Origin: a virus | Lineage: Duplodnaviria; Heunggongvirae; Uroviricota; Caudoviricetes | Virus record (IMG/VR): IMGVR_UViG_2693429637_000008 | Span: 1-6,448 of that record | Length of the DNA stretch: 6,448 bases | Direction: 5' to 3' (one strand) | Shown here: one piece after another, positions 1 to 6,448 of the stretch | Position numbering within the stretch: position 1 is the first letter of the stretch | Layout of the letters: the number at the start of each line of letters is the position of its first letter | Position numbers and translations under genes: made by a program | The notes under the pieces: model-generated | Seen by the model: the letters and a program-made list of their open reading frames with translations, nothing else | The model's database searches: none | What the model was told of the DNA's origin: nothing

Positions 1-50
1 TGTCAACGCCACGATGTTTGACCGTTATTTGCCATTTTCATGCCCGCTAA
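1..50. repeat. IS21-family terminal inverted repeat, istB-distal end (IRR); extent approximate
   Basis: TGTCAACGCCA...GACCGTTATTTGCCATTT pairs imperfectly with the reverse complement of 2081-2130 (TGTCAGCGCCA...GACGGTAATTCGCCATTT). Confidence 0.75.
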
Positions 51-59
51 ATACTTTCG

Positions 60-2029
<1,970 letters not shown>

Positions 2030-2080
2030 GTTGATGTCCTTTCTGGTGTGAGAACCTTAAGGAAACAACATGTTGGGTGG

Positions 2081-2130
2081 AGCGGACAATCCAAATGGCG
2101 AATTACCGTCTTATATCACTGGCGCTGACA
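2081..2130. repeat. IS21-family terminal inverted repeat, istA-proximal end (IRL); extent approximate
   Basis: Ends ...GGCGCTGACA at 2121-2130, the reverse complement of the window start with one mismatch in the first 11 nt. Confidence 0.75.
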
Positions 2131-2361
2131 CTCCCTCCGTTGTTGAGAACGGCGACGGTATGCCAGCAACTCAAGAACTCTGGTTCGTATGTTGCGCATA
2201 TCCACGCCGTTAAGCTCAATACCGTCACGGCGCATTACCTCATCCACCACACGCGCATAATTTTCAGCGGTCACGCTGTCCGGTTGCATGGCCTGTTCGT
2301 CAACCTGCTGGCTGATTCCGGCGACGCGGCGGATTAATCCCAGTATTTCGGCTTCTGTCAT
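2116..2361 (-). pseudogene. Small element gene truncated by the IS21 insertion; possibly a head-completion or head-tail connector-like protein (weak guess)
   Basis: ATG at 2361 preceded by a GGGGG Shine-Dalgarno-like run. Codons 1-77 (2131-2361) are native; the last four codons and the stop (2116-2130) lie inside the IS21 terminus. It sits directly downstream of the capsid gene. Confidence 0.5.
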
Positions 2362-2399
2362 TGTGCCCCCATCGCGCTGGTTAAGAAAACAAGCTCAGA

Positions 2400-2613
2400 T
2401 TTTTTGTAAAGAATCTGTCACGCTAAAAGATGTCGAACAAAAATTAACCACAATCATCATCTTTTTTGCATCAACTACATTAAAAACAACAGGTTACACA
2501 CATGATGATGATGACGATAAAACCACAAAAATGCGCTTTTTTCCGCGCCGACCCGCCCCGTGGACAGGCCCCCCCCACCAGGAGGACCCGCAAAAAAGGC
2601 GGCTGCTGCCGCC
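2400..2613 (-). repeat. Intergenic terminator/regulatory cassette, copy 1 (paralogue of 4918-5130)
   Basis: Shares with copy 2 the blocks TTTTTTGTAAA, TCGAACAAAAA, CGCYTTTTTCCGCG, CCGCCCCGTGGACAGGCC, CCCCCACCAGGAG and a terminal hairpin plus A-run, in the same order and spacing (plus-strand reading). Confidence 0.75.
2592..2613 (-). terminator. Rho-independent terminator downstream of the capsid gene
   Basis: Minus strand reads GGCGGC-AGCA-GCCGCC followed by TTTTTTG, 6 nt after the capsid stop codon at 2620-2622. Confidence 0.7.
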
Positions 2614-2619
2614 TTGTTC

Positions 2620-3378
2620 TCATGAAGAAATCGCTCTGACCATTCCGCGATAATCCAGAGCAGCAACGCCAGCATCAATGCGGACCTTCCAGGCCACACC
2701 GTCAACAATAAAGCCCTCCTGCTGCTCAAGGTAAGGCTCGTCATTACCGTCAAGATAAGCCACCTCAATTGTGTCCGTTCCCTGTGCTGAAAGCATGTAC
2801 CATTGCTTATCACTGACTTCATCAAGGCGGGGATCGACAATAATATCCAGTTGTTTGTGGTACGGGTTATATGAACCACTGTTTGTATCGGCACCGAAAG
2901 GCGTGGTTGAGTTAACCATTTGCAACGCTCTGTCTTCCAGAGCCGCAGGAACAAGAAGGAATTTTGGCACAATATTCAGCACCTCACCGTTTTCATCCCT
3001 CTGTGTGCGCATTGCACGGCGTGCAATGCCAAGCCCTGTAGTGCTGACTCCGTTATCAATATCATTTCCGTGTTTTTTGCTGAACAGCGGTATACCGTCA
3101 GAAAGCTTTGTGTTTCCTGTCAGCACCAGATGAACCAGATTACCCACCGTTCTGGCGGCTGCTCGCCCCATTGCCTGTGGGATAACTGTTAACTGATTCA
3201 GGTCATCGTTAATAATCGCCTGTCGGGTAATGCTGAAAATATTTCCGTAAGTTGCCAGCGCGATTGGTTCGCCACGGTCACTGGTGGTGATGTATTTATA
3301 TTCCGCGCCTTCCGGCACTTTGTTTAATGTAGAGAAGCCATTCAGGCCAACACGACGTGCCTCATGGAAGTTTGACAA
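2620..3378 (-). CDS. Major capsid protein (HK97-like), C-terminal ~250 residues; downstream frame of a split protease-capsid gene
   Basis: The 252-aa ORF has no ATG start (the ORF track begins it at a TTG) and is in the -1 frame relative to 3342-4487. Composition and length fit the body of a phage major capsid protein. It is entered from the upstream frame at the A_AAA_AAG heptamer at 3384-3390. Confidence 0.7.
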   Translation of the reverse strand: MSNFHEARRVGLNGFSTLNKVPEGAEYKYITTSDRGEPIALATYGNIFSITRQAIINDDLNQLTVIPQAMGRAAARTVGNLVHLVLTGNTKLSDGIPLFSKKHGNDIDNGVSTTGLGIARRAMRTQRDENGEVLNIVPKFLLVPAALEDRALQMVNSTTPFGADTNSGSYNPYHKQLDIIVDPRLDEVSDKQWYMLSAQGTDTIEVAYLDGNDEPYLEQQEGFIVDGVAWKVRIDAGVAALDYRGMVRAISS

Positions 3379-4487
3379 TGAACCTTTTTTCGTCCACTGG
3401 CGGAACGTTTCGCCGCTGTGTTCACGGATTTTTCAGCACCACCAGCAAGGATATAAGTAAAATCGCTGCTGCTGTGGGTGAATGCCGCGTTTACTATCTG
3501 CGAGCGTGTGCTGTAGCTGCCTGTGCTTATGCCGCGATGGGTTAATGATGCCTGTGCCATATCGAAAAGGCTCATCATGGCGTAAGGGTTGCCGCGTTCT
3601 GCCTGTTCATGTCCCAGACGCGCATTAAGCCCCTGACGCATTGCATCGCCGGTTATGTTGCCGTTATCCGTGTACGCGTAGTAAAGATTTGCGGGGGTGG
3701 TTTTGTTTGTCGGTGTCGATTCTTTACCCATAGTGAGTAAAAGGCGTTCGCGTGCATCCTCAACGCTACAGCCTGAATCAGCAAGACAACTTATAGCCAG
3801 GTCGTTATATCTTCCATTGAACGTGCCAAACAATTCACGTATCCCGTTGAGTCGTTCCTGTTCTCCGCTGCCAGTTTTCTGGCTGATCATGCTTTTAATA
3901 TTTTCCGGCATATTCGAAAAATCTCCGATTCGTTTTGATTCAATTCTGGCCATTGCTGTAATCGCGGGTATAACCTCATCTGCGAAGCCATTAGCCTTAC
4001 ACTCATTGCCATCCATCCAGGTTTCCGCCTCCATCATGGCGGTGATTTCCTGTTTGCTCCTGCCCGTTCTTCCGGCGTAGGTTTCCGCCATCGTGTCGCC
4101 CAGCTTGTCCATCAGGTCAGCAAAGCGGCGAACGTCGCCCGACACTCCGGCAGTAACACCACGGGGGGCATGTATCATCATCATCGCGTTTTCAGGCATA
4201 ACGATGTGATCGCCACACATGGCAATAAACGAGGCCATAGAAGCCGCCATGCCTTCAATGTGTACAATTTTCTTTGCCGGATGATTTTTCAGGGCGTTAT
4301 AGATAGCCAGCCCTTCAAAGATGTCGCCACCAGGTGAATGGATGCGAAGATGGATTTCAGGCACATTACCGCACGCGTTGATCTCGTCAGTAAGTGCCGA
4401 TGCTTTTACACCGTACCCGCCGATCTCGTCATAAATGCGTACATGTACAACATCAGCCATAGCCTTAATGGAAAACCATGTTTTCAT
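3342..4487 (-). CDS. ClpP/S49-like prohead protease fused to a scaffold-like linker and the N-terminal part of the major capsid protein; upstream frame of the split gene
   Basis: 381-aa ORF with AGGAG 7 nt before the ATG at 4487. The N-terminal ~190 aa have serine-protease-like motifs (IHSPGGDIFEGLAIYNAL, HIEGMAASMASFIAMCGDHIVMPENAMMMIHAP). This frame stops 13 codons after the slippery heptamer. Confidence 0.75.
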   Translation of the reverse strand: MKTWFSIKAMADVVHVRIYDEIGGYGVKASALTDEINACGNVPEIHLRIHSPGGDIFEGLAIYNALKNHPAKKIVHIEGMAASMASFIAMCGDHIVMPENAMMMIHAPRGVTAGVSGDVRRFADLMDKLGDTMAETYAGRTGRSKQEITAMMEAETWMDGNECKANGFADEVIPAITAMARIESKRIGDFSNMPENIKSMISQKTGSGEQERLNGIRELFGTFNGRYNDLAISCLADSGCSVEDARERLLLTMGKESTPTNKTTPANLYYAYTDNGNITGDAMRQGLNARLGHEQAERGNPYAMMSLFDMAQASLTHRGISTGSYSTRSQIVNAAFTHSSSDFTYILAGGAEKSVNTAAKRSASGRKKVHCQTSMRHVVLA

Positions 4488-4711
4488 AGCCAGGCTCCTA
4501 ACGTTGCCCTGTACCAGTATTCAACCGCGCTTCTCGCAATCTGCCCTTTCGTGGGTACTGGCATTCCAGGGTGATGACTTTTAATGAACTGCTGATAGCG
4601 TTCGAGCTTCTCCATAGTTCCGGCGTCTATGTGCACTGTTGCACTTTTATCCGGTTTTCTGCTGTTGTTCTCTGGCATAAGTCTGCCTCCGTTATGATTA
4701 ACGGGCATCAT
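4484..4711 (-). CDS. Small ribbon-helix-helix-like DNA-binding protein (putative regulator); true start probably the ATG at 4678
   Basis: GGAGG (plus-strand CCTCC at 4686-4690) lies 7 nt before the internal ATG at 4678, giving a 64-aa product. Predicted strand-helix-helix pattern (ATVHID / MEKLERYQQFIKS / TKGQIARSAVEYWYR). Its stop overlaps the protease start (ATGA at 4484-4487). Confidence 0.6.
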   Translation of the reverse strand: MMPVNHNGGRLMPENNSRKPDKSATVHIDAGTMEKLERYQQFIKSHHPGMPVPTKGQIARSAVEYWYRATLGAWL

Positions 4712-4859
4712 TATTGATCGATAAAACTGGTAAATAAATCATTTTCTATCTAAAAATCAGATTATGTGTTTTCTGATTTTTGTCATACCAGCAAAAGAAT
4801 TGACTAATTATTGCCACGCCAGCACAATTAAGACTCATCATTTCGGTAGTGGCAGTATC

Positions 4860-4876
4860 CTTTGTCGCTGACAAAG
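4860..4876. promoter_or_regulatory. Perfect 7-bp inverted repeat with 3-bp spacer, CTTTGTC-gct-GACAAAG; candidate operator or hairpin
   Basis: Exact dyad symmetry seen in the sequence, located in the leader upstream of the RHH-capsid operon. Confidence 0.4.
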
Positions 4877-4910
4877 CGCCTCCGGTGGCACCATCGGGGC
4901 GCTTTTTTTT
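4876..4910 (+). terminator. GC stem-loop followed by T8 on the plus strand; terminator-like, possibly bidirectional attenuator
   Basis: GCGCC (4876-4880) pairs with GGCGC (4898-4902), followed by TTTTTTTT (4903-4910). On the minus strand the same stem is followed only by a weak TTTGTC. No plus-strand protein gene ends here. Confidence 0.45.
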
Positions 4911-4917
4911 GCGCCTG

Positions 4918-5130
4918 TTTTTTGTAAATGCTTTCGGGAACGTTCCGGCGTCGAACAAAAAACAACCTAATTCGACACTAAAAATTTTTATTTTGCCATA
5001 TATCAATAACTTAAACTGGTGGTGATGGTGACATAAAAATCAAAAAATACGCCTTTTTCCGCGAACCGCCCGCCCCGTGGACAGGCCACCCCCACCAGGA
5101 GTACCTACAAAAAAGCCGGATTGCTCCGGC
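4918..5130 (-). repeat. Intergenic terminator/regulatory cassette, copy 2 (paralogue of 2400-2613)
   Basis: Same ordered conserved blocks as copy 1. Also contains a match to the IHF-site consensus as I recall it (TATCAATAACTTA, 5001-5013). Confidence 0.75.
5108..5130 (-). terminator. Rho-independent terminator downstream of the SSB-like gene
   Basis: Minus strand reads GCCGGA-GCAA-TCCGGC followed by TTTTTTG, 17 nt after the stop at 5147-5149. The stem differs from the copy-1 terminator by compensatory changes. Confidence 0.7.
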
Positions 5131-5146
5131 TTCTGTCACTCGTTGC

Positions 5147-5569
5147 TTAAAACGGTATGTTATCCCCGTACGGATCATCATTCCCCGCCTGTTGTTTGGC
5201 CCTGTTCAGTGCATCAGTGGCCTGCCCCTGTTGGCCTTTTTTACCGCCCGGTCGCGCCGTTCTGGCACTGATTACACTGTCTGCGATAACCTGCCAGCCC
5301 TGCCGCGTTTCTCCGTTCTGGCCTGTCCACTGGCTTACCTGCATGTTACCCGCCACGCTCACCAGCTCGCCTTTCTGGTGCTTTGCCAGTGCGTCAGCCT
5401 GTCTGCCAAACGCCAGGACGGATAACCATATCGTCGCCGTTCCGTCATCTGCCTGGCTGCACGGCAGGGGAACCGCCATACTCGCCATCGTCATTTGCGT
5501 ACCCTTGCTGGTGGTCTTTAACTGCGGGTCAGCCACCAGCCGCCCGTAAGCCGCTATCTGTGCTGTCAT
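5147..5569 (-). CDS. Short single-stranded-DNA-binding (SSB)-like OB-fold protein with a C-terminal ...DNIPF tail
   Basis: 140-aa ORF with GGAGAG 8 nt upstream. The N-terminal ~100 aa follow the bacterial SSB OB-fold pattern (GRLVADPQLKTT..., WLSVLAFGRQADALAKH, QKGELVSVAG). A Gly/Gln-rich linker leads to a C-terminal ...GNDDPYGDNIPF, resembling the SSB acidic IPF tip. Its ATG overlaps the upstream stop (ATGA at 5566-5569). Confidence 0.7.
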   Translation of the reverse strand: MTAQIAAYGRLVADPQLKTTSKGTQMTMASMAVPLPCSQADDGTATIWLSVLAFGRQADALAKHQKGELVSVAGNMQVSQWTGQNGETRQGWQVIADSVISARTARPGGKKGQQGQATDALNRAKQQAGNDDPYGDNIPF

Positions 5570-5855: not shown

Positions 5856-6086
5856 CCTTCACCTGTTCACCTTTTGCAATTTTCCCTTTTTATTCATGAT
5901 GTTAATGGGTTAACAGTTTCACAAAAACTATTCACCAACTGTTCACCACTGTTCACCCTTAAAGCTCAATAAAGAATCAAAAAGGTGAACAGTGAATAGT
6001 TTGGTGAACAGTTCATAAATAACTGTTCACCCTATAATATACTGATATAAAAGACATTTATTGCAGGGTGAACAGTGGTGAACAGT
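5856..6086. repeat. Iteron array: putative replication origin of P4 alpha-protein type
   Basis: Direct copies of (AC)TGTTCACC at 5864, 5940, 5950 and 6024, with variants CCTTCACC at 5856 and TATTCACC at 5929. Inverted copies GGTGAACA(GT) at 5984, 6003, 6067 and 6077. Interspersed AT-rich tracts and a perfect TATAAT at 6033-6038. Confidence 0.75.
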
Positions 6087-6114
6087 TATTCCATAAGTTT
6101 AATTTTTTCCATCG

Positions 6115-6411
6115 TCATTTGTGACCTATTGCACATGATGGCATCCAGTCTTCTGAATCCTCTGTCAGGGTCACATTTGAACGCAAACCGTGCTTCGTTT
6201 TCCGTTTCATATACTCCCTGCCATATTCCGCCATTGCCCCCGGCATATCTTTACCGAAGCGCGTCAGTGTTACAGGTTTACCGAATCCGTGTGCCCTCAT
6301 ATATGCCAGATAGGCGTGATAAAGATACCTGCGCGGACTGAACGGAATAATTTCGGCATTACCCACTAACAGACCATCACACATTACCGACGACATGAGG
6401 TGTACTGGCAA
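6115..6411 (-). CDS. Hypothetical 98-aa protein upstream of the iterons (possibly replication-associated); start uncertain (TTG at 6411 or ATG at 6396)
   Basis: Open frame with protein-like composition, but no convincing Shine-Dalgarno sequence. An in-frame TAG lies at 6421-6423, and other minus-strand frames are open right to the window edge. Confidence 0.35.
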   Translation of the reverse strand: MPVHLMSSVMCDGLLVGNAEIIPFSPRRYLYHAYLAYMRAHGFGKPVTLTRFGKDMPGAMAEYGREYMKRKTKHGLRSNVTLTEDSEDWMPSCAIGHK

Positions 6412-6448
6412 TAGCGGACACTACCATTTGTTCTTTTTTTAAGCAGCC

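What the first reader, a model, noticed from the sequence alone, without database searches (positions are those of the whole stretch)
3342..3440. Protease-capsid fusion gene is split at a perfect A_AAA_AAG -1 slippery heptamer
The upstream frame (protease, linker, start of capsid) and the downstream frame (capsid body) overlap by ~90 nt. The only route between them is a -1 shift at CGA-AAA-AAG (minus strand, plus coordinates 3384-3390), the same heptamer used for programmed frameshifting in E. coli dnaX. Either a -1 slip or a single A inserted into the A6 run would give ...SASGRKK-GSLSNFHEARRVGLNGF... Three readings are possible: (a) programmed frameshifting that sets the ratio of a short protease-scaffold product to the full fusion; (b) a one-base deletion pseudogenising the capsid gene in an element that also carries an IS insertion; (c) a homopolymer sequencing error. 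I see no strong downstream stem-loop or upstream SD-like stimulator, which weakens (a).
Basis: partly seen in the sequence, partly recalled or inferred. Interest (0 to 1): 0.7.

Follow-up and report, generated by a model that had tools for sequence, protein, structure and literature searches.

The report
Capsid gene broken by 13-base deletion
The split protease-capsid gene in this Shigella sonnei prophage-like island is an ordinary pseudogene made by a 13-base deletion 33 nt upstream of the A-run, not a programmed ribosomal frameshift site.

Summary
The sequence facts are right. On the minus strand a 381-aa ORF (4487..3342: ClpP-like protease, linker, start of capsid) overlaps a capsid-body frame (open 3432..2620) by 88 nt, and cgA-AAA-AAG (3390..3384) is in phase for a -1 slip. 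Intact single-ORF orthologues carry the same A6 run, read in frame as ACG-AAA-AAA-GGT (Thr-Lys-Lys-Gly). The window instead lacks 13 nt (GCTTGCAGGCTGG, codons for Leu-Ala-Gly-Trp plus one base) at 3424|3423, 33 nt upstream of the heptamer. Re-inserting those 13 nt gives a 626-aa protein identical to an intact allele found in other Shigella sonnei isolates. More distant orthologues have non-slippery codons at the site. All 59 informative E. coli rows have the extra 13 nt, and 120 of 123 phage homologues cover at least 80% of the junction peptide (one frame in all 30 rows listed). No stimulatory structure is present. The deleted allele is on record in thousands of S. sonnei assemblies, so it is not a sequencing error. 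The island is bounded by IS21-family and IS3-family insertions within the window, and related loci add an IS1. Verdict: a lineage-fixed frameshift pseudogene in a decaying PICI-like island. At most, trace accidental slippage could occur.

The parts
3342..4487 (-). ORF1, 381 aa: the truncated product of the broken fusion gene. Residues 1-355 are native (ClpP-like prohead protease 44-173, scaffold/linker, first residues of the capsid domain). The last 26 residues are out of frame.
   Evidence: PF00574, 3.7e-33; NF045540 profile positions 2-193 as best stretch, 442.7 bits, below the cutoff of 475. Named 'putative protease/scaffold protein [Shigella sonnei Ss046]'.
3423..3424 (-). Junction of the 13-nt deletion. 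The minus strand reads TCCGT|GAACAC; the intact gene has TCCGT-GCTTGCAGGCTGG-GAACAC, which encodes Val-Leu-Ala-Gly-Trp-Glu. This is the real frame break.
   Evidence: DNA alignment with the intact E. coli orthologue. Protein alignment with six homologues. Re-insertion reproduces S. sonnei protein P0003 exactly. All 59 informative E. coli rows have record span = query span + 13 nt.
3345..3422 (-). Out-of-frame tail of ORF1 (NTAAKRSASGRKKVHCQTSMRHVVLA, 26 aa). In the other frame the same DNA encodes the conserved capsid segment EHSGETFRQWTKKGSLSNFHEARRVGLNG.
   Evidence: both translations; only the capsid-frame reading matches homologues.
3384..3390 (-). A_AAA_AAG heptamer. Ancestrally these are the in-frame codons (AC)G-AAA-AAA-G(GT), Thr-Lys-Lys-Gly. 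The upstream deletion put them in the slippery phase by accident.
   Evidence: The A6 run is identical in the 92%-identical orthologues. More distant orthologues have ACG-CGT-ACC-GGT, ACG-CGT-AGC-GGA or ACG-CGG-AAA-GGT.
2620..3432 (-). Capsid-frame remainder of the fusion gene (HK97-fold Phage_capsid_4 body). ORF-listing runs it from a TTG at 3378 (252 aa), but homology in this frame runs up to the deletion junction.
   Evidence: PF25209, 1.5e-49; NF045540 profile positions 400-650, 368.8 bits.
1..2130 (-). IS21-family insertion (IstA 2029..857, IstB 860..60). Context only: it marks the island as decaying and cuts the downstream 93-aa gene to 81 aa (2361..2116).
   Evidence: NF033546, NF038214; other S. 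sonnei loci L002 and L005 match the window only from 2131 onwards. One search gives the gene lengths, 93 versus 81 aa.
6396..6448 (-). Terminal 53 nt of an IS3-family element that splits the island's primase gene. Context only: a second IS hit on the same island.
   Evidence: HTH_Tnp_1 + rve ORFs lie between the D5_N/DUF5906 part and the Pox_D5 part of the primase. One search gives the IS end sequences.

Best explanation
The window comes from Shigella sonnei. It is 99.98% identical to strain Ss046, CP000038.1. It lies in a small integrase/AlpA/primase/SSB island of the PICI (phage-satellite) type. Such islands normally carry one long gene for a ClpP-like prohead protease, scaffold and major capsid protein fusion (NCBIfam NF045540). 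In this lineage a 13-nt deletion (GCTTGCAGGCTGG, at window 3424|3423) removed Leu-Ala-Gly-Trp and shifted the frame. Translation now runs 26 out-of-frame codons and stops at 3344..3342. The result is a 381-aa protease/scaffold stub, and the capsid body is left without its natural start. The A_AAA_AAG heptamer is the family's ordinary Lys-Lys-Gly codons seen in the shifted phase. It is a by-product of the deletion, not a recoding signal. Shown: the deletion, its position, the intact allele, the non-conservation of the heptamer, and reproducibility across assemblies. Inferred: loss of capsid function, and that any slippage is trace-level and unselected.
For: (1): the intact 629-aa E. coli orthologue (WP_032209815, 90% nt identity) has the same GGACGAAAAAAGG with six A's and 13 extra nt upstream. 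(2): the motif V-L-x-G-W-x4-E-T-F/Y-x2-W-T-x2-G-x-L-S-x-F is present in single-ORF homologues at 92%, 63% and 52% aa identity. The window encodes EHSGETFRQWTKK only in the capsid frame. (3): other S. sonnei isolates carry a 626-aa intact allele (P0003, 113 contigs). It is identical to the window gene translated after the 13 nt are put back. (4): the exact 381-aa product is listed in 2904 blocks of assemblies and in at least 1000 contigs. Six independent loci share the identical 62-nt junction, so this is not a sequencing error. (5): in a spread sample of 343 E. coli genomes, all 59 informative rows have a record span 13 nt longer than the query span. Fifty-eight of these are annotated as intact fusion proteins and one is cut by an IS66 element. 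(6): 120 of 123 phage records cover at least 80% of the 136-aa junction peptide, as one continuous frame in all 30 rows listed. (7): ORF1 and ORF2 hit complementary halves of the single-protein model NF045540 and each falls below its cutoff. The intact allele scores 863 bits. (8): the 84 nt downstream fold no better than shuffles (z = -0.27). No GGAG/AGGA-like element lies in the 20 nt upstream. (9): IS1, IS3-family and IS21-family insertions sit in the same island.
Against: The heptamer really is in the right phase, and it is among the most shift-prone in E. coli when stimulators are present (PMC4066793). Some -1 slippage into the capsid frame cannot be excluded. No expression or protein data are available. 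Its 13 nt are therefore inferred from its protein sequence and from the E. coli orthologue.
Confidence: 0.96

Rival explanations
1. Programmed -1 ribosomal frameshifting at A_AAA_AAG sets the ratio of a short protease/scaffold product to the full protease-capsid fusion.
For: The heptamer is in the X_XXY_YYZ phase, and a -1 shift joins the two frames. It is the same heptamer used by dnaX and IS911 (established knowledge).
Against: No orthologue has the two-frame layout. The heptamer is read in frame in close relatives and is replaced by non-slippery codons in others. The frame switch in homology falls at the 13-nt deletion, not at the heptamer. There is no downstream structure (z = -0.27) and no upstream SD-like element. 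An otherwise identical intact allele exists in the same species. The shifted product would lack 4 residues and scramble 13 more, 11 of them changed, in a segment that carries no gap in the five distant phage homologues aligned.
Confidence: 0.01
2. Accidental ('saviour') frameshift suppression. The deletion is real, but unprogrammed -1 slippage at the fortuitously phased heptamer yields trace amounts of a 622-aa fusion that retains some function or acts as a capsid poison.
For: The phase and direction are right. Translational correction of indels is a recognised phenomenon (abstract of PMC5009743, seen). Heptamers without stimulators do shift above background.
Against: Without stimulators, shift-prone heptamers gave only 2.1-10 times a 0.055% background, which is at most about 0.6% (PMC4066793). 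The product lacks conserved G-W and E-T-F..W residues. The island's primase is IS-disrupted, so the element is probably not mobilisable. The deletion looks recent, because the intact allele is otherwise identical, so there has been no time for selection on the arrangement.
Confidence: 0.025
3. Sequencing or assembly error, or a one-base deletion within the A6 homopolymer.
For: Homopolymers are common sites of both kinds of event.
Against: The A-run is A6 in the intact orthologue too. The difference is a 13-nt block of mixed sequence. The identical junction occurs in six independent assemblies, and the exact truncated protein occurs in thousands.
Confidence: 0.005
4. Transcriptional slippage by RNA polymerase on the A-run inserts an extra A into some mRNAs and restores the frame.
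For: Adding one A would join the frames.
Against: Productive slippage generally needs runs of about 8-9 or more A/T (established knowledge). This run has six. It would also be an accident of the deletion and would yield the same scrambled product.
Confidence: 0.01

Closest known systems
E. coli dnaX and IS911/IS3 orfAB programmed -1 frameshift sites
   Same: The slippery heptamer A_AAA_AAG is identical, is in phase with the upstream frame, and the shift direction (-1) joins the two frames.
   Different: Those sites are conserved in orthologues and flanked by stimulators: an SD-like element upstream and a hairpin or pseudoknot downstream (established knowledge; PMC4066793). Here there is no conservation of the layout and no stimulator. 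The two-frame arrangement arises from a 13-nt deletion unique to one S. sonnei lineage.
ClpP-like prohead protease/major capsid protein fusion proteins (NCBIfam NF045540), e.g. in Stx-converting phages, VT1-Sakai, Salmonella Fels-1 and Pseudomonas MD8
   Same: The ancestral gene here is a full member. The intact S. sonnei allele scores 863 bits against a cutoff of 475, with 52-61% identity to the phage versions around the junction.
   Different: The window's copy is broken into two ORFs, each below the family cutoff. It sits in a small satellite-like island rather than in a complete phage head module.
Gram-negative PICIs such as EcCICFT073 (Fillol-Salom et al. 2018, PMC6092414)
   Same: The gene content includes integrase, AlpA and a D5-type primase. 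Iterons lie immediately 3' of the primase gene, and there is a capsid-protein homologue.
   Different: I did not test whether c1499 of EcCICFT073 is the same fusion family. The S. sonnei island is IS-disrupted. Induction and packaging are untested.
Frameshift pseudogenes and IS-mediated gene decay in Shigella genomes
   Same: A non-multiple-of-3 deletion fixed in a clonal lineage, with several IS insertions in the same element.
   Different: Nothing of substance. This is a typical example. That Shigella is rich in IS elements and pseudogenes is from my own knowledge, not tested here.

Membership tests
Programmed -1 ribosomal frameshift site (dnaX/IS911 type) | Slippery heptamer X_XXY_YYZ in phase with the upstream (0) frame, with the -1 frame open downstream | tested here: met
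   cgA-AAA-AAG at 3390..3384. The -1 frame is open to 2620.
Programmed -1 ribosomal frameshift site (dnaX/IS911 type) | The two-frame gene layout and the heptamer are conserved among orthologues | tested here: not met
   Orthologues are single ORFs. The heptamer is read in frame as KKG or replaced by CGT-ACC, CGT-AGC or CGG-AAA. Of 123 phage records, 120 cover at least 80% of the junction peptide, in one frame in all 30 rows listed.
Programmed -1 ribosomal frameshift site (dnaX/IS911 type) | Stimulatory elements: an SD-like sequence upstream and/or a stable hairpin or pseudoknot a few nt downstream | tested here: not met
   The downstream 84 nt give MFE -20.6 against a shuffle mean of -19.7, z = -0.27. 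The upstream 20 nt AAACGTTCCGCCAGTGGACG contain no GGAG/AGGA/GAGG.
Programmed -1 ribosomal frameshift site (dnaX/IS911 type) | Two protein products in a fixed ratio in vivo | not testable with these tools
   Needs western blot, mass spectrometry or a reporter assay.
Frameshift pseudogene | An indel whose length is not a multiple of 3, located exactly where homology to intact relatives changes reading frame | tested here: met
   A 13-nt deletion at 3424|3423. The ORF1 frame matches homologues upstream of that point and the capsid frame matches them downstream.
Frameshift pseudogene | An intact allele or orthologues exist as a single ORF | tested here: met
   S. sonnei P0003 (626 aa) equals the window gene plus 13 nt. 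E. coli WP_032209815 is 629 aa.
Frameshift pseudogene | The lesion is real, not a sequencing artefact | tested here: met
   The exact 381-aa product is listed in 2904 blocks and in at least 1000 contigs. The junction is identical in L002-L007.
NCBIfam NF045540, ClpP-like prohead protease/MCP fusion | One polypeptide that matches the 652-position model above 475 bits | tested here: not met
   Window ORF1 scores 442.7 bits and ORF2 368.8 bits, on complementary halves of the model. The intact allele P0003 scores 863.2 bits, so the ancestral gene is a member and the window's ORFs are its fragments.
Gram-negative PICI (EcCICFT073-like satellite) | Integrase, AlpA and a primase/rep gene with the origin (iterons) immediately 3' of it, and no full set of phage structural genes | tested here: met
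   Gene content in L002/L003. GGTGAACAGT iterons at 5924-6100, 3' of the primase fragment. Criteria taken from PMC6092414.
Gram-negative PICI (EcCICFT073-like satellite) | Helper-phage induction, excision, replication and packaging | not testable with these tools
   Experimental. In S. sonnei the primase is split by an IS, so activity is doubtful.

The most novel reading that the evidence does not exclude
The 13-nt deletion happened to place the conserved Lys-Lys-Gly codons in the A_AAA_AAG phase. Ribosomes would then restore the capsid frame at a low rate, under about 1%. The result would be trace amounts of a 622-aa fusion with a locally scrambled N-terminal capsid segment. That product might keep residual function or act as a dominant-negative poison of related helper-phage capsids. 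This would be a natural 'saviour indel' frameshift.
Probability: 0.03. Interest if true: 0.3.

Novelty: already known. Interest (0 to 1): 0.07.

Why it matters
It matters mainly as a caution. A perfect dnaX-type heptamer in the overlap of two ORFs looked like recoding. It turns out to be ordinary Lys-Lys-Gly codons exposed by an upstream deletion of 3n+1 bases. Any such deletion upstream of AAA-AAA-G creates this appearance automatically. For annotation, the two S. sonnei Ss046 CDSs ('putative protease/scaffold protein' and 'unknown protein encoded within prophage') should be merged into one frameshifted pseudogene of the NF045540 family. The 13-nt indel could also serve as a simple lineage marker within S. 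sonnei, since both alleles circulate.

Tried and rejected
(1) I tried to fetch the DNA of the intact S. sonnei allele (P0003) with the look-up of encoding contigs. (2) My first in-silico repair was one base out of register and gave a wrong peptide. It was corrected. (3) An Rfam scan of the whole window found no family at gathering score. (4) The promoter/terminator scan of 2100-5300 found nothing relevant near the site and no excess of promoters. (5) Folding the 84 nt downstream of the heptamer found no structure beyond chance. (6) A literature search for a satellite carrying a protease/capsid fusion returned nothing specific, and a phrase search failed on term length. The PICI paper gave only the general precedent of a capsid homologue in EcCICFT073. 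(7) I folded the two copies of the repeated intergenic module. Only the terminator-like hairpin is shared, with no common further structure. (8) I considered a database-wide protein search and structure prediction and did not run them, because the comparative evidence was already decisive.

Full report
OBSERVATION. On the minus strand, the ORF listing gives a 381-aa ORF at 4487..3342 and a 252-aa ORF at 3378..2620. Pfam places a Clp protease domain at residues 44-173 of the first ORF. It places a Phage_capsid_4 domain, profile positions 43-262 only, over the second. Reading the DNA and translating both frames shows three things:
- The upstream frame ends ...AEKSVNTAAKRSASGRKKVHCQTSMRHVVLA*.
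- The capsid frame is open from 3432: *KIREHSGETFRQWTKKGSLSNFHEARRVGLNGFS.
- The upstream frame reads GGA-CGA-AAA-AAG-GTT.

So A_AAA_AAG (3390..3384) is in the canonical phase, and a -1 slip joins the frames. The overlap is 88 nt. The motif is not rare here: AAAAAAG occurs 9 times in the window against 1.67 expected.

WHAT BROKE THE FRAME. A megablast of 2600-4500 against complete E. coli genomes found 209 genomes. The listed hits are all annotated 'ClpP-like prohead protease/major capsid protein fusion protein', a single gene. I aligned the window with the intact 629-aa orthologue of strain 2014C-4423. That alignment shows the orthologue has exactly the same GGACGAAAAAAGG with six A's. The window lacks 13 nt, GCTTGCAGGCTGG, between TCCGT and GAACAC, which is window 3424|3423, 33 nt upstream of the heptamer. 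In the orthologue the A-run is read in frame as ACG-AAA-AAA-GGT (Thr-Lys-Lys-Gly).

A protein alignment with satellite-type and lambdoid-phage-type fusions at 92%, 63% and 52% identity shows a conserved segment, SVLAGWEHSGETFRQWTKKGSLSNF (V-L-x-G-W-x4-E-T-F/Y-x2-W-T-x2-G-x-L-S-x-F). The window encodes EHSGETFRQWTKK only in the capsid frame. The ORF1 frame gives the unrelated NTAAKRSASGRKK. Homology therefore changes frame at the deletion, not at the heptamer. The codons at the heptamer position differ in more distant orthologues: ACG-CGT-ACC-GGT, ACG-CGT-AGC-GGA and ACG-CGG-AAA-GGT. The slippery sequence is not conserved.

BREADTH.
- A spread sample of 343 E. coli genomes matched 3250-3550. 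All 59 informative rows have a record span exactly 13 nt longer than the query span, and 58 of them are annotated as intact fusions. One is truncated by an IS66 element.
- A tblastn of a 136-aa junction peptide against 50,697 phage records found 123 records. In 120 of them one place covers at least 80% of the query, and all 30 rows listed are a single continuous piece. They include Stx-converting phages, VT1-Sakai, Fels-1, Pseudomonas MD8 and Rhodobacter phages.
- Five distant phage homologues have no gap where the window lacks Leu-Ala-Gly-Trp.
- The NCBIfam model NF045540 is a single-protein model of 652 positions. ORF1 hits its N-terminal part (442.7 bits) and ORF2 hits positions 400-650 (368.8 bits). 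Both fall below the cutoff of 475, while intact genes score 863-891 bits.

SOURCE AND REALITY OF THE LESION.
- The exact 381-aa protein is on record in 2904 blocks of public assemblies, including CP000038.1.
- The window is 99.98% identical to that record over all 6448 nt.
- Source names identify the two ORFs as 'putative protease/scaffold protein' and 'unknown protein encoded within prophage' of Shigella sonnei Ss046.
- Six independent loci share the identical 62-nt junction, including the A6 run.
- The same protein cluster contains a 626-aa 'fusion protein' from other S. sonnei isolates (P0003, 113 contigs). It is identical, residue for residue, to the window gene translated after the 13 nt are put back.

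The deletion is therefore real, recent and polymorphic within S. sonnei. It is neither a homopolymer error nor a loss of one A. A further S. sonnei variant (P0010, 376 aa) has the intact 13 nt but ends ...TKKGEVA*. That tail is the translation of GG + TGAGGTAGCCTGA, which is the end of the IS3-family element that also splits this island's primase gene. It looks like an independent inactivation of the same gene. This last point is an inference from the protein tail.

STIMULATORS AND EXPECTED SLIPPAGE. The 84 nt downstream of the heptamer fold no better than shuffled sequence: -20.6 against -19.7 kcal/mol, z = -0.27. The 20 nt upstream contain no SD-like element. In the systematic E. coli study of Sharma et al. 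2014 (PMC4066793), heptamers without stimulators gave only 2.1-10 times a 0.055% background. High efficiency of A_AAA_AAG required the IS911 or IS3 stimulators. Any slippage here should therefore be well below 1%. Its product (622 aa) would lack four residues and carry 13 scrambled positions in place of the conserved G-W...E-T-F..W segment.

CONTEXT. In S. sonnei the gene lies in an island between cspD and clpS. The order is integrase, IS1, AlpA, small ORFs, DUF4222, a D5-type primase split by an IS3-family element, an 81-aa ORF, SSB, a 64/75-aa ORF, the broken fusion gene, and a 93-aa ORF. In the Ss046 lineage an IS21-family element follows. GGTGAACAGT iterons lie just 3' of the primase fragment. 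This matches the Gram-negative PICI layout described by Fillol-Salom et al. 2018, who also note a putative capsid protein gene in EcCICFT073 (PMC6092414). The island is visibly decaying, which fits a pseudogene.

MECHANISM AND VERDICT. Best explanation (confidence 0.96): this is a lineage-fixed frameshift pseudogene created by a 13-nt deletion. The heptamer is the family's Lys-Lys-Gly codons seen in the shifted phase. Any deletion of 3n+1 bases upstream of AAA-AAA-G produces an apparent A_AAA_AAG site in the direction that would 'rescue' the frame, so the coincidence is structural rather than meaningful. Programmed frameshifting, sequencing error and an A-run indel are rejected. Trace unprogrammed slippage ('saviour indel', a concept reviewed in PMC5009743, abstract seen) cannot be excluded, but it is unlikely to matter. 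Novelty: none. This is a known gene family, a known kind of lesion, and an organism known (from my own knowledge) for IS expansion and pseudogenes. Interest is low.

Noticed in passing
window 2362-2625 and 4890-5150 (minus strand): There are two copies of an intergenic module of about 230 nt, with 79% column identity. One lies after the capsid stop and one after the SSB stop. Each has a GC hairpin plus T6 (terminator-like). A nearly identical GC-rich core follows (CTCCTGGTGGGGGnGGCCTGTCCACGGGGCGGG...CGCGGAAAAA), and then an AT-rich stretch with TTTTTGTTCGAC and TTTACAAAAAA. Each copy precedes the next gene block. There is no Rfam match, and only the hairpin is a shared fold. It may be a duplicated terminator/promoter or regulatory module of the island.
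   Followed up: partly
window 5924-6100: There is a cluster of at least seven GGTGAACAGT iterons in both orientations. It lies immediately 3' of the primase C-terminal fragment (6411..6115, minus strand). This looks like the island's replication origin, as described for PICIs (PMC6092414).
   Followed up: partly
window 1-2130: An IS21-family element (IstA 2029..857, IstB 860..60) is present in the Ss046-like sequence. It is absent from other S. sonnei loci (L002, L005). It truncates the downstream 93-aa hypothetical gene to 81 aa at 2361..2116.
   Followed up: yes
window 6396-6448; L002 6829-8092: The window's right end is the last 53 nt of an IS3-family element. Its other end begins TGAGGTAGCCTGAGTTTAACGG, and the element splits the island's D5-type primase gene. 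The 98-aa 'ORF' at 6411..6115 starts inside the IS end and is only the primase C-terminal (Pox_D5) fragment.
   Followed up: partly
protein P0010 (S. sonnei SRS04835.1), corresponding to window ~3384: One S. sonnei isolate carries the intact 13 nt, but its protein ends ...TKKGEVA*. That tail matches the same IS3-family end inserted right after AAA-AAA-GG. This would be an independent knockout of the same gene at the A-run. It is inferred from the protein only.
   Followed up: partly
L001 260-5068; L005 4801-13161: In E. coli 2014C-4423 and in one assembly that carries the S. sonnei allele, the island directly abuts a lambdoid late region. That region begins with an N-terminally truncated terminase gpA gene. 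Portal, a second ClpP/MCP fusion (52% aa identity to the island's) and tail genes follow. The island may have inserted into, or recombined with, a helper-type prophage.
   Followed up: no
window 4484-4711 (minus strand): A small ORF (75 aa from the first ATG; called as 64 aa in public assemblies) ends in ATGA, overlapping the start codon of the protease-capsid gene. This suggests translational coupling. It has no Pfam or NCBIfam match.
   Followed up: no
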